Both the position numbers and the translations under genes were made by a program. A stretch of 64,000 nt of DNA from an uncultured delta proteobacterium (GTDB taxonomy: Bacteria > Desulfobacterota > Syntrophia > Syntrophales > CAMTWB01). Location of the stretch: positions 44,261 through 108,260 of the forward strand of contig CAMTWB010000007.1 of NCBI GenBank assembly GCA_947085375.1, written 5' to 3'. The notes beneath the pieces were generated by a model, which saw only the letters and a list, made by a program, of their open reading frames with translations, ran no database searches and had not been told where the DNA came from. Positions 1,458 to 44,185 of this stretch are shown here, in pieces (the first letter of the stretch is position 1; every line of letters starts with the position of its first letter).

Positions 1458-1518
1458 GGTTCAGGATTGCAGCCTGAACCGGGAATTAATGTTTTGGTTC
1501 AATCTGCAAGATTGAACC
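1458..1518. repeat. Two adjacent palindromes: GGTTCAGGATTGCAGCCTGAACC (1458-1480) and GGTTCAATCTGCAAGATTGAACC (1496-1518)
   Basis: Read directly. The second is identical to the core palindrome of the repeats in the 29.3-38.1 kb cassette region. Confidence 0.9.
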
Positions 1519-1528
1519 AGCCAAGCCG

Positions 1529-9589: not shown

Positions 9590-9593
9590 CGGC

Positions 9594-21260: not shown

Positions 21261-21527
21261 ATGAAGTTACTAAAATATCTCTTAATTTTTGTTTTTATGG
21301 GTGGCCTTCTCATTATCTTTGGTGACCGCGGGTTGATTGACAACTATCGCCTGTCCCAGCGTCTGCATGATTTAAAAAGTCAAAATGAACAATTACTGCA
21401 GGAAAACAAAAAAACCCAGCAAATAATTTCTCTACTCAAAGAAGACCTGACCTATATTGAAATGATTGCGCGCCGAGAGCTGGGAATGACCGGCAAGGGC
21501 GAACTGGTGTACCGCTTTACACAATAA
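21261..21527 (+). CDS. ftsB: Septum formation initiator (FtsB/DivIC family)
   Basis: 88 aa with an N-terminal TM helix, a coiled coil, and EMIARRELGM. The ORF-track start at 21021 translates the MITE. Confidence 0.7.
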   Translation: MKLLKYLLIFVFMGGLLIIFGDRGLIDNYRLSQRLHDLKSQNEQLLQENKKTQQIISLLKEDLTYIEMIARRELGMTGKGELVYRFTQ

Positions 21528-24407: not shown

Positions 24408-27400
24408 ATATCTATCTTGATGACTTCGTAAAAAGTCCGGATGCGGCGTTGCGCTGCATCCATCGTCACTGCGGCGTACGAAAAGTACGCCTCATTCCTC
24501 GTGATTTGCGCGCCTTGCCTTCGTCCTTTTTACGAAGCCGTCCTAAATGCAAGGCCTTTGCAACTTTTTACGAGCTGGTCTATCTAAGGCTGTTTGTTGT
24601 CTTTATTCTTACCATCTTCGGGATCGTTAATTACCCGGCATATTCCCACGCAACTGCTCCTTCCCCGGCTGAGTCCGCCAAGGCCACAGGCTTTGTACAG
24701 GATGTAAATGTCGGTTATATCGAGAGTATCAGTTTCAGCAGGCCTCCCGGCAGGGAGAGGGTGGTCATTGCCCTGTCCAATCGTACTCTGCTTAGCTTCC
24801 CCAAGTTGCCCCTCTTGGCGGTGGAGGACCGGGCCTTATCAGTGCTCGTCAAGATGGAGGATATGTTTGTCCCGGAGCACCTGAGACGACCGCAGGGAGA
24901 AAATGTTCCCGGCAATATCGTCCGGGTGGCACCACATCAGGTCAGCCTGGATGGCAAGCAGTTCGTTCATCTGGTTGTCGATTTAAAGGAGAGGGTGCCC
25001 TATGCGGTTCGCCGTGAAGGCGGCAACATCATCTTGGATTTTAATGTCGTCTCACTGATGGATAAAGAGGCTACGACATCGGCCAGGCCGGCGCACGTCG
25101 TTCAGGCGTCTCAACCGGCGCCGCCTGAAGCAGCCAAGAAGCCGGCCCCAGAAGCCTCTCCGGCGGCAGCGGCTGCCGCTACCACCCAGCCTATTTCCCT
25201 TGATTTTCAAGAAGCAAACATCAAGAGCGTTCTTAGGCTTCTGGCGGAAATGGGCGGGGTCAATATCGTCTCCGGCGAGGATGTCAAGGGCGCAATTACC
25301 GTAAATCTGCGGAATGTGTCATGGGAACAGGCCCTGGATGTGATCCTTGACGTAAGTAACCTGACCCGCAGGGAAACGGGCAATGTTATTACCGTGATGA
25401 CCGTCGAGCGGATGAAGAAGGAGGAGGCGGAGCGGGCCTCTTTGGTGGAGGCCCAGCGCCGGGCCGAGATGGACCGAGCCAAGGCGGAGCTGGAGAAGGA
25501 TAAGGAGCGGCTGGTCCTGGAGAAGGAGCGTCAGCGTTTTCTGGAGGAACAGGAACGGCAAAAACTTGCTTTAGAAAAAGATCGCCAGCGGCTCTTGGCG
25601 GAGCAGGAGCAGCGGAAGCTGGCGTTGGAGAAGGAACGGCTGGAGCTGGAGGCCCGCGCCCGGGCGGAGAAGGAACGGCCAGTGGCAAAACCGCCCGTGG
25701 AGCCGAGTACGGATGCGTTCGTTGATACGGATATTCGCCGGGTTTTCCAGCTCTTGGCGGAGGAGAGCCGGAAGCGGGGCGATGTGGTCAGCATTGTGGC
25801 GGGTGATGATGTCAAGGGAACGTTAACCGCAGACTTTAAGGAGGTCCCCTGGGAGCAGAAGTTAGACACGGTTTTAGAGATCAAGGGGCTTGCGAAGCGC
25901 CGGGTCGGCAATGTCATTTCGGTGATGACCATGGATCGGATGAAGAAGGAGGAGGCCGAACGGGCGCTTCTTTTGGAGTCTCAGCGGCGGGCGGAATTGG
26001 AGCGGCGCAAGGCGGAGTTGGATAAGGAGAAGGAGCAGCTCGCCCTGGAGAAGGAACGGCAGCGTTTTCTGGAGGAGCAGGAACGGCAGAAACTGGCTTT
26101 AGAGCAGGAGCGGCAGCGGCTTTTGGAGGAGCAGGAGCGCCGGCGGTTGGCTCTGGAGAAGGAGCGGCTGGAGCTTGAGGCCCGGGTTCGGGCTGAGCAG
26201 GAGCGGCCGACGGTGACGCCGATTTCGAAACCGGCGGAGCCGGGGACGGATGTTTTTGTGGAGATGGATATTCGCCGGGTTTTCCAGCTTTTGGCCGAAG
26301 AGAGTCGTCGCAGGGGCGATGTCGTCAGCATTGTAGCGGGTGATGATGTCAAGGGTACGTTAACCGCAGACTTTAAGGATGTCCCCTGGGAGCAGAAGCT
26401 GGACACGGTTTTAGAGATCAAGGGGCTTGCGAAGCGCCGGGTCGGCAATGTCATTTCTGTGATGACCTTGGATCGGATGAAGAAGGAGGAGGCCGAACGG
26501 GCGCTTCTTTTGGAGTCTCAGCGGCGGGCGGAGTTGGAGCGGCGCAAGGCGGAGTTGGATAAGGAGAAGGAGCAGCTCGCCCTGGAGAAGGAGCGGCAGC
26601 GGCTTTTGGAGGAGCAGGAGCGCCGGCGGTTGGCTCTGGAGAAGGAGCGGCTGGAGCTTGAGGCCCGCGCCCGGGCGGAGAAGGAGCGGCCGGTGGTGAA
26701 GCCCCCGGAGCCAGGGGCGGATGTTTTTGTGGAGATGGATATCCGCCGAGTGTTTCAGCTTTTGGCAGAGGAGAGCCGTCGCCGGGGCGATCTGGTCAGC
26801 ATTGTGGCGGGTGATGATGTCAAGGGAACATTCACCGCAGACTTTAAGGATGTCCCCTGGGAGCAGAAGTTAGACACGGTTTTAGAGATCAAGGGGCTCG
26901 CGAAGCGTCGGGTTGGCAATGTCATTACCGTGATGACGGTGGAGCGGATGAAGAAGGAGGAGGCGGAACGGGCAGCCGCCGACCAGGTCCGCCGAAAGCT
27001 GGAGCAGGAGCATCGCGAGCGTGAGCAGAAGATACTGGCGGAGCAGATGAAGATCGACCAGGCCAAAAGGAAAGATGAAACATCATTGGCCAGACCGCCC
27101 CTTTTAACCAGAGTGGTGGGCGTCCGTTACGCCACCCCTAAGTCGCTGCAGGAAAATCTTCAGGAACTGCTTTTGAAGGATCAGCGGGAAGGCATTCCCC
27201 CGGGGTCTGTTCGGGTCGATGAGCACAGTAATTCCCTGATCATCCAGGCCACCAAGGAGGACATGGGCCGCCTGATTGCCCTGATCGAAAAGGTGGACAA
27301 AGTCACCCCGCAAATATCGATCAAGGCCAATATCATCGAGACCACCAAGGATACGGCCCGTGACCTTGGCATCCTGTGGGGTGGAGTATGGGGTCAGAAG

Positions 27401-29337: not shown

Positions 29338-29440
29338 CTGGTTCAATCTTGCAGATTGAACCACACTAGTAAAAATATTGACCAATGGCACTTGGCACTG
29401 CTATTTAATGCTGTGGTTCAATCTTGCAGATTGAACCAGC
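29338..29440. repeat. Two copies of the GGTTCAATCTTGCAGATTGAACC palindrome (29340-29362 and 29415-29437) with flanks of the long cassette repeat, arranged head to head
   Basis: Read directly. The flanks CCACACTAGTAAAAATATT and TTAATGCTGTGG match the reverse and forward arms of the repeats at 34991, 35560 and 36506. Confidence 0.9.
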
Positions 29441-29487
29441 GGGGGCAACTGGGTGGGACAGATAATAATCAGGGAGGAACAGTAATT

Positions 29488-29847
29488 GTGAAACGATCCA
29501 TAATATTATTAGTATTGCCTCTATTTGTGACGCTTGCAATATTCGGCTGCGGCAAGGAGAAAGGCAAGAGTGCCGACAAGGTTGCACCCACGGTGCCCAA
29601 TGGCATTGCAATTACGGCCGTATCTTCTTCCGAAATTAAAATATCCTGGAACCCGTCAGCCGATGATTCCGGGAGAATAAAAGGCTATAAGGCTTACAGA
29701 AATGGTAAATATCTTAAGACGGTAGAAACAACATCGGTATCAGACACGGGCCTGAGCCCCCAAGTTAAGGTCTGTTACCGAATTTCGGCCTTTGATGGAG
29801 CAGGAAACGAATCGGCCCAGAGTGCCGAGGTCTGTGCAATCCTTTAA
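29488..29847 (+). CDS. Small lipoprotein with one FN3-like domain
   Basis: GTG start behind AGGGAGGAA, and a lipobox (LAIFGC). The FN3 unit with the CY...C pattern is homologous to the units in the downstream giant protein. Confidence 0.6.
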   Translation: MKRSIILLVLPLFVTLAIFGCGKEKGKSADKVAPTVPNGIAITAVSSSEIKISWNPSADDSGRIKGYKAYRNGKYLKTVETTSVSDTGLSPQVKVCYRISAFDGAGNESAQSAEVCAIL

Positions 29848-29880
29848 TTACGGCATGACTTTGTTCACAAGGAGATCGCG

Positions 29881-32800
29881 ATGGGAAGGTTATTTTCCGC
29901 ACTGAAAAAAAACCTGTTTTTACTGCTGGTGTTATCTCTGCTTATAGGATGCGGCACAGGCGGCCTAGAAAATGCCCCCTCTCCCTCTCCATCGCCCTCC
30001 CCCACACCGCCTGCCGGAACGACAACAATTACCGGGTACGTCGTGGACGGCTTCATTGCGGGTGCATCAGTGCGGGCCTACCAGATCAATGCCAACGGGA
30101 CGCGGGGCGATGCCATCGGTGCGGCGACAACGACGGACGCAAACGGGCGCTATACCTTAAATCTGAACTATACGGGACCGATCCTTGTCGAAAGCACAGG
30201 AGGAACCCACAAAGATTGGGCCACGGGGGTAGAGAAGATAGCCGTCACGGATAAATTAAGCGCCCTCATGTCCAACGCAAAAGATGCGGTCACAATCAAC
30301 ATTACTCCGCTGACCCATATGGCTTCCCTCCGCGCCCTGCAGGATATGGCCGTCAACAAAACCGCAGTTGCCACGGCCATTGATGCGGCTAATACCAAGA
30401 TCGGCGAGTATTTCGGCGGCATAGACATCATTAAAGACACCCCCATAGATCCCACCGTCGCCAATTCCGCGAGCGGCATCTCGCAAAAAAGGATCGACTA
30501 TGCCCTGATCCTGGCCGGGATTTCTCAAAGCGCCCTTGTCAACGGTTTGAACCCCTTTTCTCTCGCCATCGCCTTGGCTAGGGATGCCGAGGACGGGCTT
30601 TTCGACGGCAAACAAGGAACAACACAACTGACGGTGGTAAATGCCAACGGTGGGGGTACGACCAACCTATCGGCCACCGCCGCCAAAGGCGACTTGGGCG
30701 CCAACATCAATACCTTTCAGAACTCGGCGACAAACAAATCCGGCGGCGCTATAACTACCCGGATCACGGCTGGCTTAAGCGATCCGGCAAACACCGGCGT
30801 CATTCGCGCCAGGCCGGATATCCCCTCAGGATTTTCCGTGACGGCCGTTTCTTCTACGCAGATCAACCTTTCCTGGTCTGCTCCTTCCGGGGCGACGGGG
30901 TATAATGTCTATAAGGGAGACGTCTATCTTAGGTCGGTAACCACGACAACGGCCTCCGATACAGGTTTAACGCCCAATACGCAGTACTGCTATGCAATCT
31001 CTGCCTACGATGTATCCGGGAACGAATCCTCACGGACAAGTAAGTTTTGCACTACGACGAATGTTGCTCCTCCTCCTGTTCCTACGGGCCTGACGGCAGC
31101 GGCGGCTTCAGCGAGCCAGGTTGGTCTCACCTGGACGGCATCAGCGGGCGCTTCGGGTTATAAGATATACCGGGGCGGGACGCTCTTGAAGTCGGTGACG
31201 CAGACTGCGGCGACGGATGCCGGCTTAGCGGCGAATACGCAGTATTGTTACACGGTTTCCGCCTACGATGCTTCCGGCAATGAGTCGATTCAGAGCAGTA
31301 CGGTCTGTGCGACGACGAATTTGCCTGGTCCTGCCTTGCCCACGGCTTTAACGGTTGTCGCCGCCTCATCGAGGCAGATTAATCTTTCCTGGACGGCTTC
31401 GGCGGGCTTACCGGCAGCGGTGGGATACAAGATATTCAAGAACGGCGCCCATCTTAAATCCGTACCCTCGACGGTAACAACGATTGTCGAGGCGGGATTA
31501 ACGGCAAGCACACAGTATTGTTATAACGTCAGCGCCTATGACATTTCCGGAAACGAATCTATCCTGACCAGCACCGTTTGTGCGACGACCTGGAATACGC
31601 CGCCGCCGATCCCTGCCGGTTTGACAGCAACCATTATCTCCACAACGCAAATCAATCTGTCCTGGTCAGCCTCCTTGGGCGCCGCCAATTACCGGATATA
31701 CCGGAATGGAGTGGTCCACACGGTTGCCGCCACGGCCTATGCCGATACAGGCCTTGCGGCCAACACTCGGTATTGTTATACGCTCACGGCCAGCGATTCA
31801 ACGGGCAGCGAATCGGACCAGAGCGGGCAAATTTGCGCAACGACCCCGGCGATTGCACCGCCGGCAGGATTTACGGCAGTTGCGGCATCATCATCGCAGA
31901 TCAATCTCTCCTGGACAGCAGCGGCGGGCGCTTGGGGTTATAAGATATACCGTGGCGGGACGCTGCTCAAGTCTGTTACGACGGTAACGGCGACAGATGC
32001 TGGTTTAGCGGCCAGCACGCAGTATTGTTACGCGATTTATGCCTATGACGGCAACGGCAACCAGTCCCTGTCTTCCAGCCAGGTGTGCGCCACTACCTAT
32101 AATCCGCCGTCAGCCTTCCCGGTCAGCTTGACGGCCAGAGCTATCTCTACCTCAAGCATATCCTTATTTTGGACGGCCTCTACCGGCGCGGCAAGTTATA
32201 AAATCTACCGCGAAGGATCGGCCCCACCGCCCCCAACATCATTATCGACGTCCTACGCCGATACGGGACTCAATGCAGCTACCACATATTGTTATACAGT
32301 TACGGCAGTTGACGGTACGGGCAGCGAATCCGCTCCCAGCAACCGGGCCTGCGCCAATACGGGTCTGCTTGTCCCCGCAGGATTGACGGCGGCCGCCAAA
32401 TCGGAATCCAGAATCGACCTCTCCTGGCTGGCAGCCACCGGGGCAACGCAGTACAGGTTGTATAAAAACGGGGCATCCTGGAGGGCCGTCTCTGCCTTAT
32501 TGACCTCGGACACGGGTCTTTTGGCCAACACCCAATACTGCTATAGCGTATCATCTTTAAATGATTCAGGAAATGAATCGGCCCAGAGCAGCCAGGTTTG
32601 TGTAACGACCAACAATACGCCGCCGGCTGTCCCCACAGGTCTGACGGCCGCGGCTGTAACCCCCGGCCCCGGCGGAGTGATCAATCTGACGTGGAATGCG
32701 TCGCCGGGCGCGACCATCTACAAGATTTATCGAGACGGTTCTTCTGCTGCTATGGCCTCGCAAACAATAACTTCTTATTCCGATACCGGATTGGCGGCCT

Positions 32801-34992
32801 CTACAAGATATTGTTATGCGGTGACTGCCTTGGATGCCACGGGCAGCGAATCGGCCGCTAGCGCCCTGGCCTGTGCCAATACGGGGTTGACGGTGCCGGC
32901 CGGCCTGACGGCGATGGCGGCCTCAGCGACGCAAATCAATGTATCATGGACGGCAGTGGCGGGGGCTTCCGGTTATAAGGTATATAAAAACAGGGAATTG
33001 CAAGGGTCGGTCGTCACACCCGCCATCGTGGACGCCGGTTTGACAGCGAATACCCAGTACTGCTATGCCATTTCTGCTTTCGATGCAGCGGGCAATGACT
33101 CCGCGCAGAGCAGCCAGCTCTGTGTAACGACCCCGTCGCTTCCTGCGCCAGCAAGTATTGACCTGCTGGTCAGCAATCCCCAGCTCAATTCCGGCGGTGA
33201 AACACCTGTAACGATAACCGCTCTGGTCAAAGACAGTGGCAACCGGGCCCTGGCCAATCAAACGGTAACATTCACGGCGGACTCCGGGCTGCTGGTTGTT
33301 GCCAATCCCTTGACCAATGCCAGCGGCCAGGCGACGGCGACGTTAAATACCGGCGGTAACCAGAAAAACCGGATGATCACGGTTACTGCCAGCACTGGTT
33401 CTTTATCAGTACCCAAGAAGATCGATGTGGTGGGAACGGTCGTCACGATCACGGGACAGACGAATGAGGTTCTATTAAACGGTACGACAATTTTGACCGT
33501 GCAGCTAAAAGATTCCGCGGGGCGAGGCATCCCCGATCAAATCCTTGACTTGTCCAGCACCCACGGCAACACCCTGAACCCCACGACGGTGACCACCAAT
33601 GCCAGCGGGCAGGGCACGACAGTCTTTACGGCACTGGATATTCTCGGAAGCACTGCCGTCATCACGGCTACGTCCACGGCCATGAATGCAACCGGCGCCT
33701 TTAATATTAAAGTGCTAAACGATCCAACGGCAAAAACCCTGACCTTCAGTACTCCGCCTGCCGGCAAGGAGATTGCGATAAATACCAATGAACCAGTGAC
33801 TGTTCGTTACACCGATATTTCAGGTCCTATCGTGGGCGCCCAGGTCGATTTTTCCTCCTCACGGGGAACATTAAGCGCCCCGTCGGCCCTGACCAATGGC
33901 AGCGGGGAGGCCAGCCTGACGATTACTTCCACGAACGTCGGACCGGCGGTGGTGACGGCGTCCGTCGACGGCGGGCCTGCTGCGACCTTAGCGGTTGAGT
34001 TCATTGCCCCGACAGCGGCCAGGATAGACGTCCAGGCTGACCCGGCCATTATCGGCGTCAATCTCGCGGGCTCGACGACGCAGAGAAGCAGCATCGTGGC
34101 CATAGTCAGGGATGCAGAAAATAATTTAGTCAAGAATAAAACCGTAAATTTCAACATTGCAACTGATCCGAGCGGCGGCTCTCTATTGCCGAGTTCCGGT
34201 ATCGTCGTCACGGATAGTTTCGGCTCGGCCGTTGTGCAATTTGTGGCCGGCTTGTCGCCCAGTGGTCAAAGCGAGGTCAGGATCAGCGCGACGGTGGCCG
34301 GAACGGCGATTACCGCCAGTACGACCTTGACGGTGGCGCAGAAATCATTGTTTATCACCGTGGGGACGGGAAATGTCGTCATAAAGGCCGACCCGAACTT
34401 GTATCAGGTGGACTTCGCGGCCCTGGTGACTGATGCGGCCGGCAATCCCATCAAGGACGCAAACATTGCCGCCAGCCTGATGCCGGTCGTGTATATGAAG
34501 GGCGAGCACACATGGGGAGGGGCGGTATGGGCGCCAGCATATACGTTGACGTCGTCAAATCATCCCAGCCCACCGCCGCCCAATACCCCTTATCCCTGGC
34601 CGGGGTCACCGCCAAATTCCTGCGCGAACGAGGATCTGACTTTCTACAATGATCCGGCGAGGAAAGCCTCCTTGCTGAACGGCATCCTTGACCCTGGAGA
34701 AGACAACAACGGCAACAACCGGCTGGATCCAGGGGGTATTGCCTCGGTCACCCGCACGGCAACTACGGACGCAAACGGAGTCGGCAGGCTGACCGTAACA
34801 TATGCACGGGAATTCGCCTACTGGGTAATCGTCCGCCTGGATGTCCACGTCGGTGTAGCGGGTACGGAGGGGTCGGCGTTCACAACACTGCTCCTGCCCG
34901 GTGCAGGAGACGATTACAACGACCAATCGATCCGTCCGCCCGGGCGCGTGAGTCCCTTTGGTCAATCGGTTACATGCGCCGACAGCCAGTAG
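29881..34992 (+). CDS. Giant surface lipoprotein: N-terminal CarboxypepD_reg-like region, 9 FN3-like repeats, multiple Big (invasin/intimin-type Ig-like) domains
   Basis: 1703 aa with a lipobox (LLIGC). Nine units end in Y-C-Y...GNES...C. Big-type units follow, such as TVTFTADSGLL...TNASGQATATL. Confidence 0.8.
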   Translation: MGRLFSALKKNLFLLLVLSLLIGCGTGGLENAPSPSPSPSPTPPAGTTTITGYVVDGFIAGASVRAYQINANGTRGDAIGAATTTDANGRYTLNLNYTGPILVESTGGTHKDWATGVEKIAVTDKLSALMSNAKDAVTINITPLTHMASLRALQDMAVNKTAVATAIDAANTKIGEYFGGIDIIKDTPIDPTVANSASGISQKRIDYALILAGISQSALVNGLNPFSLAIALARDAEDGLFDGKQGTTQLTVVNANGGGTTNLSATAAKGDLGANINTFQNSATNKSGGAITTRITAGLSDPANTGVIRARPDIPSGFSVTAVSSTQINLSWSAPSGATGYNVYKGDVYLRSVTTTTASDTGLTPNTQYCYAISAYDVSGNESSRTSKFCTTTNVAPPPVPTGLTAAAASASQVGLTWTASAGASGYKIYRGGTLLKSVTQTAATDAGLAANTQYCYTVSAYDASGNESIQSSTVCATTNLPGPALPTALTVVAASSRQINLSWTASAGLPAAVGYKIFKNGAHLKSVPSTVTTIVEAGLTASTQYCYNVSAYDISGNESILTSTVCATTWNTPPPIPAGLTATIISTTQINLSWSASLGAANYRIYRNGVVHTVAATAYADTGLAANTRYCYTLTASDSTGSESDQSGQICATTPAIAPPAGFTAVAASSSQINLSWTAAAGAWGYKIYRGGTLLKSVTTVTATDAGLAASTQYCYAIYAYDGNGNQSLSSSQVCATTYNPPSAFPVSLTARAISTSSISLFWTASTGAASYKIYREGSAPPPPTSLSTSYADTGLNAATTYCYTVTAVDGTGSESAPSNRACANTGLLVPAGLTAAAKSESRIDLSWLAATGATQYRLYKNGASWRAVSALLTSDTGLLANTQYCYSVSSLNDSGNESAQSSQVCVTTNNTPPAVPTGLTAAAVTPGPGGVINLTWNASPGATIYKIYRDGSSAAMASQTITSYSDTGLAASTRYCYAVTALDATGSESAASALACANTGLTVPAGLTAMAASATQINVSWTAVAGASGYKVYKNRELQGSVVTPAIVDAGLTANTQYCYAISAFDAAGNDSAQSSQLCVTTPSLPAPASIDLLVSNPQLNSGGETPVTITALVKDSGNRALANQTVTFTADSGLLVVANPLTNASGQATATLNTGGNQKNRMITVTASTGSLSVPKKIDVVGTVVTITGQTNEVLLNGTTILTVQLKDSAGRGIPDQILDLSSTHGNTLNPTTVTTNASGQGTTVFTALDILGSTAVITATSTAMNATGAFNIKVLNDPTAKTLTFSTPPAGKEIAINTNEPVTVRYTDISGPIVGAQVDFSSSRGTLSAPSALTNGSGEASLTITSTNVGPAVVTASVDGGPAATLAVEFIAPTAARIDVQADPAIIGVNLAGSTTQRSSIVAIVRDAENNLVKNKTVNFNIATDPSGGSLLPSSGIVVTDSFGSAVVQFVAGLSPSGQSEVRISATVAGTAITASTTLTVAQKSLFITVGTGNVVIKADPNLYQVDFAALVTDAAGNPIKDANIAASLMPVVYMKGEHTWGGAVWAPAYTLTSSNHPSPPPPNTPYPWPGSPPNSCANEDLTFYNDPARKASLLNGILDPGEDNNGNNRLDPGGIASVTRTATTDANGVGRLTVTYAREFAYWVIVRLDVHVGVAGTEGSAFTTLLLPGAGDDYNDQSIRPPGRVSPFGQSVTCADSQ

Positions 34993-35115
34993 TCGAAGGT
35001 GCGTTAGCAAAGCGTAACGCACCTAAAACAAATGGTGCGTCCAGACGCACCCTGCATGCTGATGAAAAAATATTCTTAATGTTGTGGTTCAATCTGCAAG
35101 ATTGAACCAGCGGGG
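34991..35115 (+). repeat. Long cassette repeat, copy A (about 125 nt, three palindromes)
   Basis: AGTCG.AGGTGCGTTAGCAAAGCGTAACGCACC...GGTGCGTCCAGACGCACC...AATATTCTTAATGTTGTGGTTCAATCTGCAAGATTGAACCAGCGGGGG. It starts 2 nt inside the stop codon of the giant gene. Confidence 0.9.
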
Positions 35116-35135
35116 GAGGAGAATAAAAATACGTT

Positions 35136-35420
35136 ATGTTAGATACATATAAAGCCAGATTAAAGGGAAGCCGAGTAAAATGGACGGATGACCGTCCTAT
35201 CGCAGTATCTCAGGATCAGGAGATTGAAGTCTTGGTAACATTTCTGTATGAAATGAAGACCCCACCGGATATGCAAGCCCAACAAGGAGAACGTATGGCG
35301 CAATGTTTAGAGAAGATTGCGAGGACAGGAGGCATTCAGGGGATCACGGATCCTGTCGCGTGGCAACGGGAAATCCGAAAAGATCGTCTGGTCTATCCTG
35401 AAAACCACCATGATTCTTGA
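35136..35420 (+). CDS. Orphan antitoxin-like protein (VapB-type context)
   Basis: 94-aa ORF. The C-terminal DPVAWQREIRKDR-type tail resembles antitoxins paired with PIN toxins; this is from memory, not a search. Its stop overlaps a truncated MILD... toxin start. Confidence 0.45.
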   Translation: MLDTYKARLKGSRVKWTDDRPIAVSQDQEIEVLVTFLYEMKTPPDMQAQQGERMAQCLEKIARTGGIQGITDPVAWQREIRKDRLVYPENHHDS

Positions 35421-35441
35421 CAGTCGTAGGGTGGGGAATTA
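35409..35441 (+). pseudogene. Remnant of a PIN (VapC-like) toxin gene, cut after 4 codons at a repeat border
   Basis: ATGATTCTTGAC (MILD, a typical VapC start that overlaps the antitoxin stop) is followed immediately by AGTCGTAGGGTG. That sequence is the left end of the long repeat, and a stop follows. Confidence 0.4.
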
Positions 35442-35559
35442 GGGACACATCACTTATATCCATATTATCTTCCGGTTAGAACCGGGGATATGTCCCCGGT
35501 CTAATGCCTTGTATGAGCAGTATGGAGGTAAAGTTTATGGAAACAACCGGATTGACATT

Positions 35560-35682
35560 AGTCGTAGGGGGCGTTAGCAAAGCATAACGCACCTAAAACA
35601 AATGGTGCGTCCAGACGGCACCCTACATGCTGACGAGAAAATATTCTTAATAGTGTGGTTCAATCTGCAAGATTGAACCAGC
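35560..35682 (+). repeat. Long cassette repeat, copy B
   Basis: Same three-palindrome architecture. It is flanked on both sides by a 38-nt duplication (35524-35561 and 35685-35722) of the RBS and first codons of the downstream gene. Confidence 0.9.
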
Positions 35683-35697
35683 AAGGAGGTAAAGTTT

Positions 35698-35964
35698 ATG
35701 GAAACAACCGGGTTGACATTAGAGATACCGGGGGAGATTTTGGCTGCTGTCAAATTGCCGCCCCGAGAGATTGAACGGGAGTTTCGAAAGGAGCTTGCAT
35801 TGGCTTTGTACCAACGTGGAACCCTTTCGTTTGGCAAGGCGCGAACTCTGGCGCAGTTGACCTATTGGGAATTTGACGACTTGCTTGGGCAGCGTGAGAT
35901 CGTGCGCCATTATACGGATGATGATCTCCAAGAGGATATTCAATATGCCCACGGTGATAAGTGA
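35698..35964 (+). CDS. UPF0175-family antitoxin-like protein
   Basis: 88 aa. LALALYQRGTLSFGKARTLAQLTYWEFDDLL is a typical UPF0175 pattern. It overlaps the downstream PIN-like gene. Confidence 0.7.
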   Translation: METTGLTLEIPGEILAAVKLPPREIEREFRKELALALYQRGTLSFGKARTLAQLTYWEFDDLLGQREIVRHYTDDDLQEDIQYAHGDK

Positions 35965-36451
35965 TTCGTCAACATTGATCCATTTGGCCAAGATTGGTCG
36001 ATTGAATCTGCTGCGAAAGCTTTTTGGACGGATTGTCATAACACCGCGAGTCTGGATAGAAGTCGTAGAGCAAGGCAGTAGCCGCGCTGGAGCAACCGAG
36101 GTGGAAGTGGCCTGCGCAGATGGTTGGATAGAGATTATTGCTCCTGTAGATGCGATGATATTGCCTTTACTAAAACGTGATTTAGACGAAGGAGAAGCCG
36201 AGGTGATCGCCTTGGCGATTGAATGTAAGGCGGACATGGTTCTGCTGGATGAATGGGAAGCGCGCAGAATTGCGGAGGTATATAATTTGGTGAAGACTGG
36301 CATTATAGGAGTTTTGCTGCGCGGTAAGCAGGAAGGATACATTGGTTTTCTAAAGTCGGAATTAGATAAATTGCGAGGCCCCGGCGGATTTTGGATTGAT
36401 GAAGAATTATATCGGCGGGCACTGACCGCCGCAGGAGAGGACGGGGAATAA
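35945..36451 (+). CDS. PIN-like (DUF3368-type) toxin-like protein
   Basis: Starts MPTVISDSSTLIHLAKIGRLNLL, and contains DEGEAEVIALA. It overlaps the antitoxin-like gene by 20 nt. Confidence 0.7.
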   Translation: MPTVISDSSTLIHLAKIGRLNLLRKLFGRIVITPRVWIEVVEQGSSRAGATEVEVACADGWIEIIAPVDAMILPLLKRDLDEGEAEVIALAIECKADMVLLDEWEARRIAEVYNLVKTGIIGVLLRGKQEGYIGFLKSELDKLRGPGGFWIDEELYRRALTAAGEDGE

Positions 36452-36505
36452 ATAAAGGATGCCATTGCTTTTCTGACCCGCCAGGTGTCGGCGCAGGATG
36501 GGCAA

Positions 36506-36631
36506 AGTCGTAGGGTGCGTTAGCAAAGCGTAACGCACCTAAAACAGATGGTGCGTCAAGACGCACACTACATGCTGACGAGAAAATATTCTTAATAGTG
36601 TGGTTCAATCTGCAAGATTGAACCAGCGGGG
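36506..36631 (+). repeat. Long cassette repeat, copy C
   Basis: Near-identical to copies A and B. Confidence 0.9.
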
Positions 36632-36638
36632 GAGACCC

Positions 36639-36902
36639 GTGTTACCATATGCGATTGACATGTTTAAATATGCGATTTACTTTGAAAAAGATGTCCTTGC
36701 AAAACGACCATACCTGAAGAAGGACTGGTGTGAACGAGTCGTTTCCTCCAGAGAGCATATAGAAGAGCAACCTGATGGATGGTTTCGTTTTTGGGGTCAA
36801 GTCCCAGAATACGGAAACAAATATCTTCGCGTTGTGACACTTCCAGACCAGGAGACTATTCTCAATGCCTTTTTCGACCGAGATTTTAAGGAGGTGAGCT
36901 GA
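36639..36902 (+). CDS. DUF4258-like small protein (putative toxin partner of DUF2283)
   Basis: Small ORF ending ...YLRVVTLPDQETILNAFFDRDFK. The start is uncertain: GTG at 36639 or ATG at 36660. The ORF-track start lies inside the repeat. Confidence 0.5.
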   Translation: MLPYAIDMFKYAIYFEKDVLAKRPYLKKDWCERVVSSREHIEEQPDGWFRFWGQVPEYGNKYLRVVTLPDQETILNAFFDRDFKEVS

Positions 36903-36903
36903 A

Positions 36904-37116
36904 ATGAGACTTAGTTATCATGCTGGAACCGATTCGCTTTACATTCATCTTGTCGAGCGTCCTGGAGCGGAAGCCCGTGAAGTTGCTCCCGGGATTGTGG
37001 TCGATTTTGATGCTGAGGGAAAGCCAGTTGGAATAGATATTGAACATGCCCAGAATATTCTTGACCTTACAACCCTTGATGCCGAATCTCTACCAATAAA
37101 AGTCAAGGCTGCGTAA
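36904..37116 (+). CDS. DUF2283-family small protein
   Basis: 70 aa. YHAGTDSLYIHL...VDFDAEGKPVGIDIEHA is the DUF2283 pattern. It begins 1 nt after the upstream gene. Confidence 0.7.
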   Translation: MRLSYHAGTDSLYIHLVERPGAEAREVAPGIVVDFDAEGKPVGIDIEHAQNILDLTTLDAESLPIKVKAA

Positions 37117-37128
37117 TGATCTTTTGCT

Positions 37129-37151
37129 GGTTCAATCTTGCAGATTGAACC
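37129..37151 (-). repeat. Core palindrome copy (reverse orientation)
   Basis: GGTTCAATCTTGCAGATTGAACC, 13 nt after the DUF2283 stop. Confidence 0.9.
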
Positions 37152-37333
37152 ACGCTATGGAGAGGCAATTGCAAAAGTGCCAATATGTCATTTTCGCAAA
37201 GTTTTTGGGTAGGAATCCAGCGGTGCGCAACCTCTTGCAAAAGAGGCAGGGAGAGGACTTTTCTCTTGACAACTGACAACCGTATCAGGGTGCGTTTCGC
37301 CCCACGTTCGACACCCTCTGAGCTGAGGCAGAA

Positions 37334-37720
37334 TTGAATAAAGACGTTAAGAACTGGGTAGCTACCTCAAACTACGATATTCAAACGGCGGCCGCCATGT
37401 ATAAGGCGGGCAGGTATCTCTATGTCGTTTTTATGTGCCATCTCGCCGTCGAAAAAATACTGAAAGCGCTGTTGGCACAAAAATACCCGGAAGACCTGCC
37501 GCCCAAAATCCACAACCTGATTAAGTTGTTACAGAAACTAGAACTAACGCCGCCGGAGAATCTTAAGGATTTTTTACAGCGGATTGATAATGTCAGTCTC
37601 GTCACCCGTTATCCTGAAGACCTTCGAACGTTGTCCAAGGAATTCAATCGGGACATGGCAAAACGGATTCTTACTGAAACAAAGAGGATCATAAAGTGGC
37701 TCAAGCAACACTTGAAATAA
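37334..37720 (+). CDS. HEPN-domain protein (toxin component of a HEPN/MNT pair)
   Basis: 128 aa with a TTG start. It matches the HEPN pattern with an RxxxxH-type region (SLVTRYPED...), and overlaps the downstream nucleotidyltransferase. Confidence 0.7.
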   Translation: MNKDVKNWVATSNYDIQTAAAMYKAGRYLYVVFMCHLAVEKILKALLAQKYPEDLPPKIHNLIKLLQKLELTPPENLKDFLQRIDNVSLVTRYPEDLRTLSKEFNRDMAKRILTETKRIIKWLKQHLK

Positions 37721-38031
37721 GAAATATAATTGCCCGGTACCTGGAAAATCTGAGAGCATTAGGCGTACCTGTCGAAAGGGTCTATCTTTTCGGCTCTCAG
37801 ACGCGCTTGGATGCGGGCAGGGAAAGTGACGTAGATCTGGCCATTGTGTCGCCCTTGTTTGAAAAGATGAGTTTATGGGACCGTGCCGGTTATTTAGGAA
37901 AAGCGGCATGGGATATTCCCTATCAGATGGATATTCTTGGCTTCGCACCATCGCAAATAAGAAAAGCAACACCCGGAACGCTTTTGAGGCACATATTAAA
38001 AAACGGGATAGAGATTGCCCCTGCTGGTTAA
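37696..38031 (+). CDS. Minimal nucleotidyltransferase (MNT) domain protein
   Basis: 111 aa with the LFGSQTRLDAGRESDVDLAIV motif (GS...DxD). Confidence 0.75.
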   Translation: MAQATLEIRNIIARYLENLRALGVPVERVYLFGSQTRLDAGRESDVDLAIVSPLFEKMSLWDRAGYLGKAAWDIPYQMDILGFAPSQIRKATPGTLLRHILKNGIEIAPAG

Positions 38032-38048
38032 ATCTTGCAGATTGAACC
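38026..38048 (-). repeat. Core palindrome copy (variant GGTTAAATCTTGCAGATTGAACC) overlapping the MNT stop codon
   Basis: Read directly. Downstream, CCACATTATTAAAAGC resembles the reverse arm of the long repeat. Confidence 0.85.
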
Positions 38049-38199
38049 ACATTATTAAAAGCAGTTTTTCTGACCAATTCGAAAACTGAGCAAGCCGATC
38101 TTTCTGTTGCCCAAATTCGTCATATCGTGGGCAAGTTTAAGAATGAGGGATAGATATAGACGTCTAACTTATGTTACTGAATCCATATGAACCTATAGT

Positions 38200-41210: not shown

Positions 41211-41236
41211 TTGAATTATGGACGATGACCAATAGT

Positions 41237-41388
41237 GCTGAAGCGGTAAAAAGTAAAAAGACCCCCTCTCCCTTGATGGGAGAGGGTTGGGGAGAGGGTG
41301 ATAATAGTTGATATATCGAATATTTAAGCCCCCCTCCCCCTACCCCCTCCCACCAGGGGAGGGGAAATCGGAGCTTTACCGCTTCATC
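41237..41388. mobile_element. MITE-like repeat (termini GAAGCGGTAAAAAGT / GCTTTACCGCTTC; internal CCCTCTCCC-N5-GGGAGAGGG and CCCCTCCC-N4-GGGGAGGGG hairpins)
   Basis: A homologous copy lies at 44005-44185. Confidence 0.7.
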
Positions 41389-42601: not shown

Positions 42602-43999
42602 ATGCAAAATATATTCAGAGAGTTTGTTTTCATTCTGTTTTACCGGCTGCCGCTGATTGTCATCGTGTTTCTGACGGTTTTTATTATTTCACTCATCTTA
42701 GCCGTGACGCTTCCCTCCGTCTACCGCTCAACGGCTAAATTCTCCCTTGTTATTCCGCAGAGTTTCGATCCACTGCAGCAGGAAACATCCTTTGATTACC
42801 GCAACAGGGTGCGCCGATTTCTTCAGGATCAAAAGGAGCTTATTACATCCAACCGGGTACTTGCCAAGGTTGTTCAGCAAGCATACCCCAATACCAAGGA
42901 ACAGTCTGAAATCATTACAAAGATAAACAAATTACGACAGAATCTAGATGTCGTCCCACCGGGAGGAGAAACCTTTGAAGGTTCCAGTGTATTTATTGTT
43001 GAATTTTCCGATCACAGTCCGACATTTGCAGCCAGGATTGCATCTTTGGTAACAGATAACTACCTGGCAACATACCGCGAGATTTCTCATAGCAAAACCA
43101 GTTACTCCCTCTCATTTTTTCAAGAGCAAACCCAGAAGCTGCAAAATGAAATGCAGGAGAAGGAAAATAAAGTCCGCGACTTCGAAACAAAGCAGGCCCT
43201 GGCCCTCTTGGAAATCCTCAATCTGGGGCAGGGAGGCGCAAATGTGGAAGTCGGTCCCAATGTTCTTTTGACGCAGTTTTTGCGAAGTTACCATGAGCTT
43301 CAAGCCGATTTGGCCGCGCTTCAGGTCTCCATAGTATCCCTTGAGCGGGAGAGTAACCAAAGTGGCATTCCTGCGGTGTTGCCGGAAATGGAGGTGACGG
43401 GACGCGCCATCACGGTTTTTAAAAACAAGGTTGCCCAGTTGCAGATTCAACTCAACGAAATGAAACCTCAGTTTCAAGAAAATTTTGAACCGATGAAGCA
43501 GGTTGAACAGGAGCTGAAACTAAGTGTTGATTCCCTGAAAAAAGAAATGAAAAGAGCCGTCAGCGCTCAACGAATAACGGCCAACAGCATCAGGGCCAAA
43601 ATAGACCAACTGGAAAAAACCATTCAAAGTCTAAAAGATCGGATACAGGTCATAGCCCGGGAGAAGGCTACCTATCAGGCGCTGTTGCAGGAATTCAACA
43701 TTGTCAAAGATGCCTATACCAGGACCCAGGCCCAGATGGAGCAGGCCCGAATGGCGCAATCGCTGACTCAAGACAAGCAGTTTCTGACCTTGATTGACAG
43801 GCCGACGGTACCGGTTGCACCGTATAAACCCAACCGCCTCCTCATACTTTTAGGAGGATTGCTCGCGGGAATCTTTGTGGGAGTCGCTGTTGCTTTAACC
43901 GTTGATCACTTTGATCACCGTCTGAAGACGGTTTATGAAATTGAAAAGCAGCTGAACGTTCCAGTGTTGGGGTCTATACCAAGTTTAACGGCCTCGTAA
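42602..43999 (+). CDS. Polysaccharide chain-length determinant (Wzz/GumC-type PCP, no kinase domain)
   Basis: 465 aa with N- and C-terminal TM helices flanking a long coiled-coil periplasmic region. Confidence 0.75.
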   Translation: MQNIFREFVFILFYRLPLIVIVFLTVFIISLILAVTLPSVYRSTAKFSLVIPQSFDPLQQETSFDYRNRVRRFLQDQKELITSNRVLAKVVQQAYPNTKEQSEIITKINKLRQNLDVVPPGGETFEGSSVFIVEFSDHSPTFAARIASLVTDNYLATYREISHSKTSYSLSFFQEQTQKLQNEMQEKENKVRDFETKQALALLEILNLGQGGANVEVGPNVLLTQFLRSYHELQADLAALQVSIVSLERESNQSGIPAVLPEMEVTGRAITVFKNKVAQLQIQLNEMKPQFQENFEPMKQVEQELKLSVDSLKKEMKRAVSAQRITANSIRAKIDQLEKTIQSLKDRIQVIAREKATYQALLQEFNIVKDAYTRTQAQMEQARMAQSLTQDKQFLTLIDRPTVPVAPYKPNRLLILLGGLLAGIFVGVAVALTVDHFDHRLKTVYEIEKQLNVPVLGSIPSLTAS

Positions 44000-44004
44000 A
44001 AAGT

Positions 44005-44185
44005 AATGGCACGGCAAAAAGTCAAAAGGCCCCCTCTCCCTTGATGGGAGAGGGTTGGGGCCTGCCCCGTACTTGATACGGGGAGAGGGTGATAATGGTA
44101 GACATACCGAATGTTTACATCCCCCTCCCCCTGCCCCTCCCACCGGGGGAGGGGTAATCAGAGTTTTACCGCGCCATCATAAGTG
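44005..44185. mobile_element. MITE-like repeat, second copy of the 41237-41388 family
   Basis: It shares CCCCCTCTCCCTTGATGGGAGAGGGTTGGGG ... GAGAGGGTGATAAT ... CCCTCCCACC.GGGGAGGGG ... TTTACCGC with the first copy. Confidence 0.7.

What the first reader, a model, noticed from the sequence alone, without database searches (positions are those of the whole stretch)
29338..38048. Cassette-like array: a conserved multi-palindrome repeat delimits a giant adhesin gene and four toxin-antitoxin-type gene pairs
Seen:
- Eight copies of the 23-nt palindrome GGTTCAATCTGCAAGATTGAACC, or its complement-loop version, occur in the window. They start at 1496, 29340, 29415, 35086, 35657, 36602, 37129 and 38026.
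- Three of them are embedded in a repeat of about 125 nt that is conserved nearly base for base (starting at 34991, 35560 and 36506).
- That long repeat adds two further palindromes. The first is GGTGCGTTA-N8-TAACGCACC, with 9-bp arms around an 8-nt spacer. The second is GGTGCG-N6-CGCACC.
- The repeats fall exactly in the gaps between functional units:
  - FN3 lipoprotein plus 1703-aa adhesin;
  - orphan antitoxin;
  - UPF0175/PIN pair;
  - DUF4258-like/DUF2283 pair;
  - HEPN/MNT pair.
- Forward copies end in GGGGGAG/AAGGAGG, which supplies the RBS of the next gene.

Established: arrays of small, often TA-encoding cassettes separated by conserved imperfect palindromes are the hallmark of chromosomal integrons. 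Inverted arms around a 6-8-nt spacer are the format of tyrosine-recombinase core sites. Hairpin-based repeats are also used by REP/RAYT and IS200/IS605-type systems.

Inference: this is a recombination- or transposition-competent cassette system, or a structured-RNA processing signal. Its repeat does not look like a classical attC to me, and no cognate enzyme is in the window. It is the best candidate here for an undescribed system.
Basis: partly seen in the sequence, partly recalled or inferred. Interest (0 to 1): 0.82.

Follow-up and report, generated by a model that had tools for sequence, protein, structure and literature searches.

The report
REP hairpin repeats between toxin-antitoxin genes
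The repeated palindromes are real, but they are REP elements, the short hairpin repeats spread by a known REP-associated transposase (RAYT), so this is an ordinary kind of bacterial repeat and not a new gene-cassette system.

Summary
Eight copies of the palindrome (10-11-bp stem, 3-nt loop GCA/TGC) and three copies of a repeat of about 130 nt lie at the stated coordinates, where chance predicts none.

The interpretation does not hold. The same palindrome, GGTTCAATCT-NNN-AGATTGAACC, occurs in more than 120 stretches of genomes from many phyla. There it lies between genes of every kind, with no toxin-antitoxin enrichment.

In five independent loci the exact palindrome brackets a roughly 166-aa REP-associated tyrosine transposase (RAYT) gene. 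These are a Nitrospirota locus, a Patescibacteria locus, a contig whose RAYT protein cluster includes Syntrophaceae and Smithella members, and two unclassified contigs. The TGC-loop copy lies upstream and the GCA-loop copy downstream, the classical "REPtron" layout. The five RAYTs scanned against NCBIfam (three from these loci, two sister-stem) all pass the curated RAYT model. Sister RAYTs in Jettenia, a Thermodesulfobacteriota MAG and Methylobacter carry hairpins of the same design with other stems.

The two extra palindromes form a second REP family with the canonical GTAG foot (GTAG...CTAC doublet), which occurs on its own in 54 metagenome stretches. The 125-nt repeat is therefore a BIME-like compound of two REP families.

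The window holds no integrase and no RAYT, and the repeat has no attC-like fold.

Still unexplained: the same compound sits upstream of three unrelated small operons, and a 44-nt duplication flanks one copy.

Verdict: new member of a known kind, low-to-moderate interest.

The parts
1458..1480 (+). REP variant 'hpA' (GGTTCAGGATTGCAGCCTGAACC, TGC loop, one mismatch in the stem). It is the left half of a REP doublet lying between two genes of the dissimilatory sulfite-reductase region.
   Evidence: The same hpA-spacer-REP-B doublet occurs in Syntrophales L027, L035 and L067 and in Scalindua L061 and L101.
1486..1523 (+). REP-B unit, forward (TTAATGTTTT-GGTTCAATCT-GCA-AGATTGAACC-AGCC).
   Evidence: (family D5).
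29338..29364 (-). REP-B, reverse orientation (GCT-GG..TGC..CC-AC). It is the left half of a REPIN-like doublet.
29405..29445 (+). REP-B with forward flanks (TTAATGCTGT ... AGCGGGGG) but an inverted loop (TGC). It is the right half of the doublet, 52 nt from its partner.
   Evidence: The same loop flip is seen in the middle doublet of L052.
29479..29847 (+). fn3 lipoprotein gene.
29881..34992 (+). 1703-aa fn3/Big_1 surface protein gene.
34990..35122 (+). Compound repeat copy 1. It consists of AGTC, then REPIN-2 (foot degenerated to GAAG at 34994-34997, hp1 34998-35023, hp2 35034-35051, CTGC 35052-35055), then a linker, then the REP-B unit (35076-35116, core 35086-35108).
   Evidence: (D6).
35136..35420 (+). 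94-aa ORF with no family hit.
35422..35435 (+). Isolated left end of the compound repeat (AGTCGTAGGGTGGG), followed by unrelated sequence.
35518..35561 (+). 44-nt copy (93% identical) of the RBS plus the first 24 nt of the UPF0175 gene. It lies immediately upstream of compound repeat copy 2; its twin is at 35679-35722.
   Evidence: D15.
35560..35690 (+). Compound repeat copy 2. GTAG 35564-35567, hp1 35568-35593, hp2 about 35604-35622, CTAC 35623-35626, REP-B unit 35647-35687 (core 35657-35679).
35698..36451 (+). UPF0175 antitoxin (35698-35964) and PIN/DUF3368 toxin (to 36451).
36506..36636 (+). Compound repeat copy 3. GTAG 36510-36513, hp1 36514-36539, hp2 36550-36567, CTAC 36568-36571, REP-B unit 36592-36632 (core 36602-36624).
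36639..37116 (+). Small ORF with no family hit (about 36639-36902) plus the DUF2283 gene (36904-37116).
37127..37153 (-). REP-B, reverse orientation, starting 10 nt after the DUF2283 stop codon.
37334..38031 (+). HEPN (37334-37720) and MNT nucleotidyltransferase (37696-38031) pair.
38024..38050 (-). REP-B, reverse orientation, with one mismatch (GGTTAAATCT). The mismatch creates the TAA stop codon of the MNT gene.

Best explanation
**What it is.** The 23-nt palindrome is a REP (repetitive extragenic palindrome). With its leader and tail it is a unit of about 40 nt: TTAATGTTnT-GGTTCAATCT-GCA-AGATTGAACC-AGC. I call it REP-B.

**How it works.**
- *Established knowledge for the REP/RAYT family:* on single-stranded DNA the REP folds into a hairpin. 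A single-copy RAYT, a domesticated HUH/Y1 transposase of the IS200 superfamily, recognises the hairpin and cuts and rejoins DNA at its foot. This seeds singlets and inverted doublets (REPINs/BIMEs) into gaps between genes. Once transcribed, such hairpins can also punctuate or stabilise mRNA.
- *Inferred for this family:* that its RAYT acts on REP-B in this way.

**The 125-nt repeat.** It is a BIME-like compound of two REP families.
- A GTAG...CTAC doublet, which I call REPIN-2: GTAG-GGTGCGTTAGCAAAGCGTAACGCACC ... GGTGCG-N6-CGCACC-CTAC.
- A 20-nt linker.
- One REP-B unit.

**Why the repeats delimit the toxin-antitoxin pairs.** REPs occupy gaps between genes, and an island of small operons has many gaps.

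**Shown and inferred.**
- *Shown:* the identity of the repeats, their dispersed extragenic distribution, and their REPtron association with RAYT genes in other genomes.
- *Inferred:* that a cognate RAYT exists elsewhere in this genome; that the compound repeat reached three neighbouring gaps by recombination, gene conversion or mobilisation as a unit; and any RNA-level role.
For: 1. **Exact flanking of RAYT genes.** The window palindrome brackets RAYT genes, with the TGC-type loop upstream and GCA downstream. This holds in L075 (Nitrospirota), L127 (Patescibacteria), L133-135 (an ENA metagenome contig whose RAYT protein cluster includes Syntrophaceae and Smithella members), L191 (5.2-Mb contig, 2 upstream and 3 downstream copies) and L192, whose downstream copy carries one mismatch. 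The leader TTAATGTT.TGG and the tail CCAGC are shared with the window copies.
2. **The proteins are RAYTs.** They show HUH (LNHIHLI) and Y..NPV motifs. There are 239 homologues, many named RayT or REP-associated tyrosine transposase by their sources. All five tested pass NCBIfam NF047646 (80.5-97.7 bits, cut-off 80).
3. **Sister RAYTs keep the design.** Their hairpins have an 11-bp stem and a 3-nt loop, TGC upstream and GCA downstream, but other stems: Thermodesulfobacteriota (GGGTTCAGGTT) and Methylobacter (GGAGCGGGGTT). Jettenia carries the same GGGTTCAGGTT hairpins on both sides, preceded by GTAG in two of them, with loops ACA, TGC and GCA.
4. **L075 781-907 is an internal-deletion derivative of the REPtron.** It is a reverse REP, about 60 nt of RAYT leader, then a forward REP, which is the REPIN/MITE relationship. 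Window 29338-29445 and 1458-1523 are equivalent doublets.
5. **Dispersed extragenic distribution.** More than 120 stretches in many phyla, all gene orientations, flanking genes in 212 Pfam families without toxin-antitoxin enrichment.
6. **The second REP family stands alone.** hp1 and hp2 carry the canonical 5' GTAG foot and form a GTAG...CTAC doublet. That doublet exists on its own in other metagenomes (L138, L157) and in 54 stretches overall.
7. **Folding.** As single-stranded DNA the repeat folds into three separate strong hairpins (-33.1 kcal/mol, z = -7.2).
8. **Assembly behaviour.** A short-read contig of the same organism breaks exactly inside the repeats: L121 corresponds to 35655-36563.
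Against: - No RAYT lies in the 64-kb window, and the source genome could not be retrieved. The cognate enzyme and the genome-wide copy number are therefore unverified for this organism.
- The REP-B foot is NTGG (GTGG in four of five forward copies here), not a strictly conserved GT[AG]G.
- 7 of 8 copies cluster in 8.7 kb. The identical compound sits upstream of three unrelated operons, all in direct orientation. Random REP insertion does not predict this.
- A 44-nt duplication flanks copy 2. IS200-type or RAYT-type chemistry makes no target duplication.
Confidence: 0.9

Rival explanations
1. Integron-like or CALIN-like cassette array. The 125-nt repeats would be attC-type recombination sites, and the toxin-antitoxin pairs would be cassettes captured by an integron integrase.
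For: - Small, co-oriented, partly toxin-antitoxin units are separated by a conserved structured repeat of about 125 nt.
- The toxin-antitoxin segment has lower GC (46-48%) than its neighbours.
Against: - No Phage_integrase or IntI-type gene was found among the window ORFs scanned.
- The repeat folds into three independent perfect hairpins. It does not form one imperfect R''-L''/L'-R' hairpin pairing its two ends.
- No GTTRRRY core lies at the boundaries; this was judged by inspecting the sequences.
- The modules of the repeat occur separately and dispersed next to housekeeping genes here (1496) and in many genomes.
- The palindrome brackets RAYT genes, not intI.
Confidence: 0.02
2. Xer/dif-module-like system. 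The palindromes (arms around a central region) would be core sites of a tyrosine recombinase, and the toxin-antitoxin modules between oppositely oriented sites would move as with the pdif modules of Acinetobacter plasmids.
For: - The DUF2283 unit lies between a forward site (36602) and a reverse site (37129).
- hp1 has 9-bp arms around an 8-nt spacer.
- pdif modules often carry toxin-antitoxin genes (my own knowledge, not tested here).
Against: - REP-B has a 3-nt loop between perfect 10-bp arms, with no 6-8-nt asymmetric spacer.
- Site orientations do not alternate: R, F, F, F, F, R, R.
- No recombinase is in the window.
- The loop varies freely in Chloroflexota copies, 30 different loops in all. 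That fits a hairpin and does not fit a crossover region.
- The sites are consistently associated with RAYT genes.
Confidence: 0.02
3. The primary function is at the RNA or regulatory level. The hairpins would be transcript-boundary, processing or stabilising signals, or operator sites, selected at the edges of toxin-antitoxin operons, and not selfish repeats.
For: - Forward copies sit just upstream of ribosome-binding sites, and reverse copies start 10 nt after or over stop codons.
- The hairpins are very stable.
- REPs of E. coli are reported to affect mRNA turnover (cited in the abstract of PMC3479197).
Against: - This does not explain the origin of the repeats, their cross-phylum identity or their RAYT bracketing.
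- No sigma-70-like promoter lies in the compound repeat, and there is no T-tract terminator on the sense strand.
- No Rfam family matched.
- This is best seen as a possible secondary, co-opted role.
Confidence: 0.06

Closest known systems
E. coli REP/BIME elements and their RAYT (TnpA-REP, RayT/YafM) in a 'REPtron' (PMC3479197, PMC6006769, PMC2817692)
   Same: - Short extragenic palindromes present as singlets and inverted doublets.
- More than one REP family per genome, forming mosaics.
- A single-copy HUH/Y1 gene bracketed by its own REPs in inverted orientation.
- The proteins pass the NCBIfam RAYT model.
   Different: - REP-B is a perfect 10-11-bp stem with a 3-nt loop. It is not a long bulged hairpin.
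- Its foot is NTGG and not strictly GT[AG]G.
- The roughly 40-nt unit is nearly invariant across several phyla.
- No RAYT lies in this window.
REPIN-RAYT systems of Pseudomonas (PMC3116915, PMC3337134)
   Same: - Two REPs in inverted orientation with a spacer form the replicating unit.
- RAYT is single-copy and REP-flanked.
- Copies are restricted to gaps between genes.
   Different: - Here many copies are singlets.
- The doublets often pair two different stems (hpA with REP-B).
- The three compound repeats are in direct orientation.
GTAG-tagged REP super-family (Di Nocera et al. 2013, PMC3733652)
   Same: - REPIN-2 has the 5' GTAG foot and its CTAC mirror.
- Such families are reported in several phyla and to overlap the ends of ORFs.
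- hp1 matches a plasmid of Gloeothece (Cyanothece) PCC 7822. The paper lists strain 7822 among the six Cyanothece strains in which GTAG-15 and GTAG-16 were monitored.
   Different: Whether REPIN-2 equals GTAG-15 or GTAG-16 could not be checked, because the sequences are in figures that are not held.
Integron attC sites and chromosomal cassette arrays
   Same: Structured repeats of about 60-130 nt lie between small, co-oriented genes that are often toxin-antitoxin genes.
   Different: - No intI gene.
- No R''/L''-L'/R' single hairpin and no GTTRRRY core.
- The repeat modules are dispersed genome-wide and across phyla next to unrelated genes.
IS200/IS605 elements and their miniature derivatives (PATEs)
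   Same: The enzyme belongs to the same superfamily, and recognition depends on a subterminal hairpin.
   Different: - The enzyme has the RAYT signature (Y..NPV) and not Y...Q.
- There is no tnpB gene.
- The gene did not appear in multiple copies in the loci examined.

Membership tests
REP / REPIN-RAYT system | Short (20-40 nt) palindromic repeat confined to gaps between genes. | tested here: met
   - Eight copies in the window, all between genes or at gene ends.
- 129 copies in 120 loci from other genomes, mostly between called ORFs, in all gene orientations.
REP / REPIN-RAYT system | High copy number, dispersed in the genome. | tested here: inconclusive
   - The source genome was not retrievable.
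REP / REPIN-RAYT system | A cognate RAYT gene bracketed by the REP in inverted orientation (REPtron). | tested here: met
   - Met in five independent loci from other genomes with the exact palindrome.
- Met in three more with sister stems.
- Not met inside the window itself, which has no RAYT.
REP / REPIN-RAYT system | The enzyme is an HUH/Y1 protein of the RAYT type. | tested here: met
   - NCBIfam NF047646 at 80.5-97.7 bits, cut-off 80, for 5 of 5 proteins.
- HUH and Y..NPV motifs are aligned.
REP / REPIN-RAYT system | 5' GT[AG]G foot at the base of the hairpin. | tested here: met
   - REPIN-2 has GTAG and a mirrored CTAC in copies 2 and 3, and in most of the metagenome copies listed.
- REP-B has GTGG in four of five forward window copies. 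In other genomes it is ATGG, AAGG or TTGG, so the feature is only loosely met for REP-B.
REP / REPIN-RAYT system | Inverted doublets (REPIN/BIME). | tested here: met
   Doublets at 29338-29445 and 1458-1523, GTAG...CTAC doublets in the three compound repeats, L052 doublets, and the L075 781-907 doublet.
REP / REPIN-RAYT system | RAYT cleaves and rejoins the REP as single-stranded DNA. | not testable with these tools
   This needs biochemistry.
Integron / CALIN | An intI tyrosine recombinase adjacent to the array. | tested here: not met
   Pfam scans of the 50 window ORFs scanned found no Phage_integrase family hit. CALINs lack intI by definition, so this alone is not decisive.
Integron / CALIN | attC architecture: a single imperfect hairpin pairing R''-L'' with L'-R', and a GTTRRRY core at the cassette boundary. 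| tested here: not met
   - The minimum-free-energy and centroid folds show three separate perfect hairpins, and the two ends are not paired.
- No GTTRRRY core was seen at the boundaries on inspection.
- No attC covariance model was available to run.
Integron / CALIN | The repeat is specific to the cassette array. | tested here: not met
   The modules occur separately and are dispersed.
Xer/dif-type modules | Two about 11-bp arms around a 6-8-bp asymmetric central region, with sites alternating in orientation around the modules. | tested here: not met
   REP-B has a 3-nt loop, and the site orientations are R, F, F, F, F, R, R.

The most novel reading that the evidence does not exclude
The compound REP unit (AGTC + REPIN-2 + REP-B + AGCGGGGGAG) may be more than a passive insertion. 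It could be a RAYT-dependent, or REP-homology-dependent, junction at which small operons such as toxin-antitoxin pairs are captured and shuffled. That would be a hairpin/HUH-based analogue of integron cassette arrays.

Three observations are compatible with this:
- The identical compound, in direct orientation, sits upstream of three unrelated operons within 1.6 kb.
- An orphan left end (AGTCGTAGGGTG) lies at 35422.
- A 44-nt duplication of a gene start flanks copy 2.

A weaker but more probable novelty is that one REP-RAYT lineage keeps a nearly invariant REP of about 40 nt across Patescibacteria, Nitrospirota, Thermodesulfobacteriota, Planctomycetota (Brocadiales) and Chloroflexota. That implies either horizontal spread or very strong constraint.
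Probability: 0.07. Interest if true: 0.7.

Novelty: new member of a known kind. Interest (0 to 1): 0.25.

Why it matters
- **It removes a false lead.** The 'cassette array' is a REP/BIME landscape and not a new recombination system.
- **It adds a REP-RAYT family.** It gives a concrete pair, the REP-B sequence with roughly 166-aa RAYTs, that I did not find described in the searchable literature.
- **The REP is conserved across phyla.** It is almost identical across distant phyla, including tiny Patescibacteria genomes. This bears on the debate over whether REPIN-RAYT systems are inherited strictly vertically (bioRxiv 10.1101/2022.05.22.493013; PMC6006769 argues for patchy horizontal transfer).
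- **It has a practical use.** These repeats break short-read assemblies of such organisms, and they can mislead cassette or attC-like pattern searches.

Tried and rejected
- **Rfam, gathering threshold, whole window:** no match.
- **Literature search for the palindrome sequence:** only unrelated shRNA and SARS-CoV-2 primer hits.
- **Looking up window proteins by exact sequence to find the source genome:** only contigs of 0.9-2.3 kb from two samples were found (ERR3478700 and ERR3478716). Neither the RAYT of this genome nor strain comparisons could be obtained.
- **Searching the 120 fetched loci for hp1, hp2 and the linker:** absent there. This first suggested the 125-nt repeat was private to this genome. 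The later metagenome scan showed hp1/hp2 is a widespread GTAG REP.
- **Portable-promoter idea for the compound repeat:** the simple sigma-70 scan finds none.
- **Phage or plasmid vector idea:** only 3 of 2.9 million viral contigs carry the palindrome. The plasmid collection gave one partial match of the compound repeat, covering hp1 only.
- **Considered from memory and rejected on sequence:** LexA, ParB or other operator palindromes; CRISPR repeats; a tRNA T-arm relic.

Full report
**1. Checking the observation**

The 23-nt palindrome is present at all eight stated positions. Seven copies are exact on one strand, and the copy at 38026 has one mismatch. Dinucleotide shuffles of the window give no match.

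The palindrome is a perfect 10-bp stem, or 11 bp with the flanking T/A, around a 3-nt loop. Its flanks define orientation.
- Forward copies read TTAATGnTGT-[stem-GCA-stem]-AGCGGGGG.
- Reverse copies read GCT-[stem-TGC-stem]-AC.
- The copy at 29415 has forward flanks and a flipped loop.

The three long repeats at 34990-35122, 35560-35690 and 36506-36636, and the two extra palindromes inside them, are confirmed.

Pfam confirms these genes: fn3 lipoprotein, 1703-aa fn3/Big_1 protein, UPF0175, PIN/DUF3368, DUF2283, HEPN and the MNT nucleotidyltransferase. The 'orphan antitoxin' and the 'DUF4258-like' ORF have no Pfam or NCBIfam hit.

**2. The palindrome elsewhere**

They come from Chloroflexota, Brocadiaceae/Scalindua, Syntrophales/Smithella and other Thermodesulfobacteriota, Nitrospirota, Nitrospinota and Candidatus Kuenenbacteria.
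- Several MAGs contribute many separate loci.
- The copies lie mostly between called ORFs, in all gene orientations: ++ 31, -- 24, +- 16, -+ 10.
- The 150 flanking ORFs scanned hit 212 different Pfam families. The 25 most frequent include methyltransferases, TPR proteins, ABC transporters and glycosyltransferases, and no toxin-antitoxin family.
- In the window one copy lies between two genes of the dissimilatory sulfite-reductase region, 28 kb from the array.

The repeat is therefore a dispersed extragenic palindrome and not a cassette-specific site.

**3. The enzyme**

A motif filter for HUH followed by Y..NPV, run on every ORF of the 120 loci, picked one ORF: L075 1329-1856 in a Nitrospirota MAG.
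- A reverse copy of the palindrome lies immediately upstream of it.
- A forward copy, split by an insertion, lies just after its stop codon.
- L075 781-907 is a miniature in which the reverse REP and about 60 nt of the RAYT leader are fused to the forward REP.

The protein has 239 homologues of about 166 aa. Many are named RayT or REP-associated tyrosine transposase by their sources.

Fetching the DNA around homologues gave the following.

| Locus | Origin | Hairpins flanking the RAYT gene |
|---|---|---|
| L127 | Patescibacteria, 812-kb contig | TGGTTCAATCT-TAC-AGATTGAACCA 30 nt upstream; GGTTCAATCT-GCA-AGATTGAACC 5 nt after the stop |
| L133-135 | ENA metagenome contig; RAYT cluster includes Syntrophaceae and Smithella members | Same palindrome, TGC loop upstream and GCA downstream, tail AGCGGGCGG |
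| L191 | 5.2-Mb contig, 35% GC | Two reverse copies upstream, three forward copies downstream |
| L192 | 1.1-Mb contig, 54% GC | Same arrangement; the downstream copy has one mismatch |
| L124 | Jettenia | GGGTTCAGGTT hairpins on both sides, two of them preceded by GTAG; loops ACA, TGC and GCA |
| L132 | Thermodesulfobacteriota MAG | GGGTTCAGGTT with TGC upstream and GCA downstream |
| L130 | Methylobacter luteus | GGAGCGGGGTT-TGC upstream, GGGACGGGGTT-GCA downstream |

All five RAYTs tested pass the NCBIfam equivalog NF047646, with 80.5-97.7 bits against a cut-off of 80. The five RAYTs bracketed by the exact REP-B palindrome are 57-72% identical to each other and 46-60% identical to those with other stems.

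This is the REPtron arrangement described for REP/RAYT systems (PMC6006769, PMC2817692, PMC3116915).

**4. The 125-nt repeat**

Its first two palindromes are preceded by GTAG and followed, on the far side of the second hairpin, by CTAC. The sequence is GTAG-GGTGCGTTAGCAAAGCGTAACGCACC-TAAAACAAAT-GGTGCGTCCAGACGCACC-CTAC. This is an inverted REP doublet with the canonical GT[AG]G foot.

A metagenome scan for the hp1 core found 54 stretches.
- Nearly all copies carry GTAG at the foot.
- Many are GTAG...CTAC doublets.
- Two (L138, L157) are almost the same doublet as in the window, without REP-B beside them.
- hp1 also matches a plasmid of Gloeothece PCC 7822. Strain 7822 is one of the Cyanothece strains in which Di Nocera et al. 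monitored GTAG REP families (PMC3733652).

The alignment shows that the repeat is modular. It consists of AGTC, REPIN-2, a 20-nt linker, and a REP-B unit that it shares with the doublets at 29380 and 1440. As single-stranded DNA it folds into three separate hairpins (-33.1 kcal/mol, z = -7.2). It does not form one attC-like hairpin.

**5. What is not in the window**
- No integrase, recombinase, transposase or RAYT was found (Pfam on 50 ORFs; tblastn).
- No Rfam family matched.
- No sigma-70-like promoter lies in the compound repeat.
- The palindrome is almost absent from viral contigs: 3 of 2.9 million.

**6. Mechanism**

The best-supported reading is that REP-B and REPIN-2 are non-autonomous single-stranded-DNA hairpin elements. 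Their cognate RAYTs, encoded elsewhere in the genome, would spread and maintain them. That last step is inferred from the REPtron association in relatives and from established RAYT biochemistry in E. coli (PMC3479197).

The repeats fall 'exactly in the gaps' because REPs are extragenic by nature. Details fit this.
- One reverse copy starts 10 nt after the DUF2283 stop codon.
- A point mutation in another copy supplies the TAA stop codon of the MNT gene.
- Di Nocera et al. report that REPs commonly abut or overlap the ends of ORFs (PMC3733652).

Loop flips occur at window 29415 and in the middle doublet of L052. They are what intrastrand template switching in a perfect palindrome would produce; this is my inference.

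**7. What remains unexplained**
- Seven of eight copies lie within 8.7 kb.
- The same compound, with the same internal junctions, lies in direct orientation upstream of three unrelated small operons within 1.6 kb. The compound therefore formed once and then spread as a unit.
- An orphan left end, AGTCGTAGGGTGGG, lies at 35422.
- A 44-nt duplicate of the UPF0175 RBS and first codons lies just upstream of copy 2 (family D15).
- The copies are mosaics: 1 and 3 share the 5' half, 2 and 3 share the 3' half. This suggests gene conversion or recombination between them.

These points leave a small probability that REP-mediated recombination helped to assemble the toxin-antitoxin array. They do not support an integron-like or Xer-like system.

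**8. Verdict**
Its preferred reading, an undescribed cassette system, is not supported.
- Novelty: a new member of a known kind.
- The moderately interesting residue is the near-invariance of one REP of about 40 nt, with a roughly 60%-identical RAYT, across at least five phyla, together with the locally propagated compound repeat.

Noticed in passing
window 55305-55450; also 20970-21025 and 21074-21094: Another palindrome family, CCCCCCTTT-GGG-AAAGGGGGG (9-11-bp stem, 3-nt loop). Four tandem copies with a 31-nt period lie upstream of a multihaem cytochrome gene, and further copies lie around the start of the DivIC-domain (septum formation initiator) ORF (21021-21527): 20970-21025 just upstream of and reaching its start, 21074-21094 inside it. 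This may be a third REP-like family in this genome.
   Followed up: partly
window 41231-41366 and 43999-44157: Two intergenic segments of about 140 nt in the exopolysaccharide cluster are 77-85% identical. They are rich in C/G-tract palindromes (CCCTCTCCCTTGATGGGAGAGGG and CCCCTCCCACCAGGGGAGGGG) (families D11 and D13).
   Followed up: no
window 1528-1597: A heptamer tandem repeat (GCCTTTA/GCCTTCA, about 10 units) lies directly after the REP-B copy at 1496, between two genes of the dissimilatory sulfite-reductase region (family D10).
   Followed up: no
window 38026-38031: The single mismatch in the last REP-B copy (GGTTCAATCT changed to GGTTAAATCT) creates the TAA stop codon of the MNT nucleotidyltransferase gene. 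Without it the ORF would run 10 codons further, through the REP.
   Followed up: partly
window 35518-35561 versus 35679-35722; 35422-35435: A 44-nt duplication (93% identical) of the RBS and the first 24 nt of the UPF0175 gene brackets compound repeat copy 2. An orphan 14-nt left end of the compound repeat follows the stop codon of the 94-aa ORF. This looks like a recombination scar, but the mechanism is unresolved.
   Followed up: partly
L075 1878-2040: In the Nitrospirota REPtron, the forward REP after the RAYT stop codon is split by an insertion of about 125 nt. The insertion is itself strongly palindromic (GAGACGCGGAGGCGCGGAG ... CGGCGTCTCAGCGTCTCCGCGG), and CAAGATTGA is repeated at both joints.
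   Followed up: no
L133 406-1110: The same contig that carries the REP-B RAYT has a second Y1_Tnp gene (565-1041). It is bracketed by a different GTAG REP family (GTAGGGATTGATC-CCC-GATCAATCC and GGCGCAATC-CCC-GATTGCGCC). Two REPtrons therefore lie side by side.
   Followed up: no
Chloroflexota loci such as L002, L012, L113: In Chloroflexota the palindrome is extended to AGATT-[core]-AATCT and the loop varies freely, with 30 different loops overall. The arms then read AGATTG-GTT-CAATCT, so each arm is itself a mini-palindrome. No RAYT of this family was seen in those loci, so the link to RAYT is untested for this phylum.
   Followed up: partly
window 25379-27001: The 1248-aa secretin gene contains three internal repeats of about 530 nt (67-91% identical), which fits the four stretches matching the STN domain.
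   Followed up: no
window 1-12017: The flanking genes indicate a sulfite- or sulfate-reducing or syntrophic organism. They include two NIR_SIR genes at 5797-8053 (the dissimilatory sulfite-reductase type), several membrane and iron-sulfur subunit genes like those usually found with it, and an HdrA/FlpD-like gene. The REP doublets resemble those in Syntrophales MAGs.
   Followed up: partly
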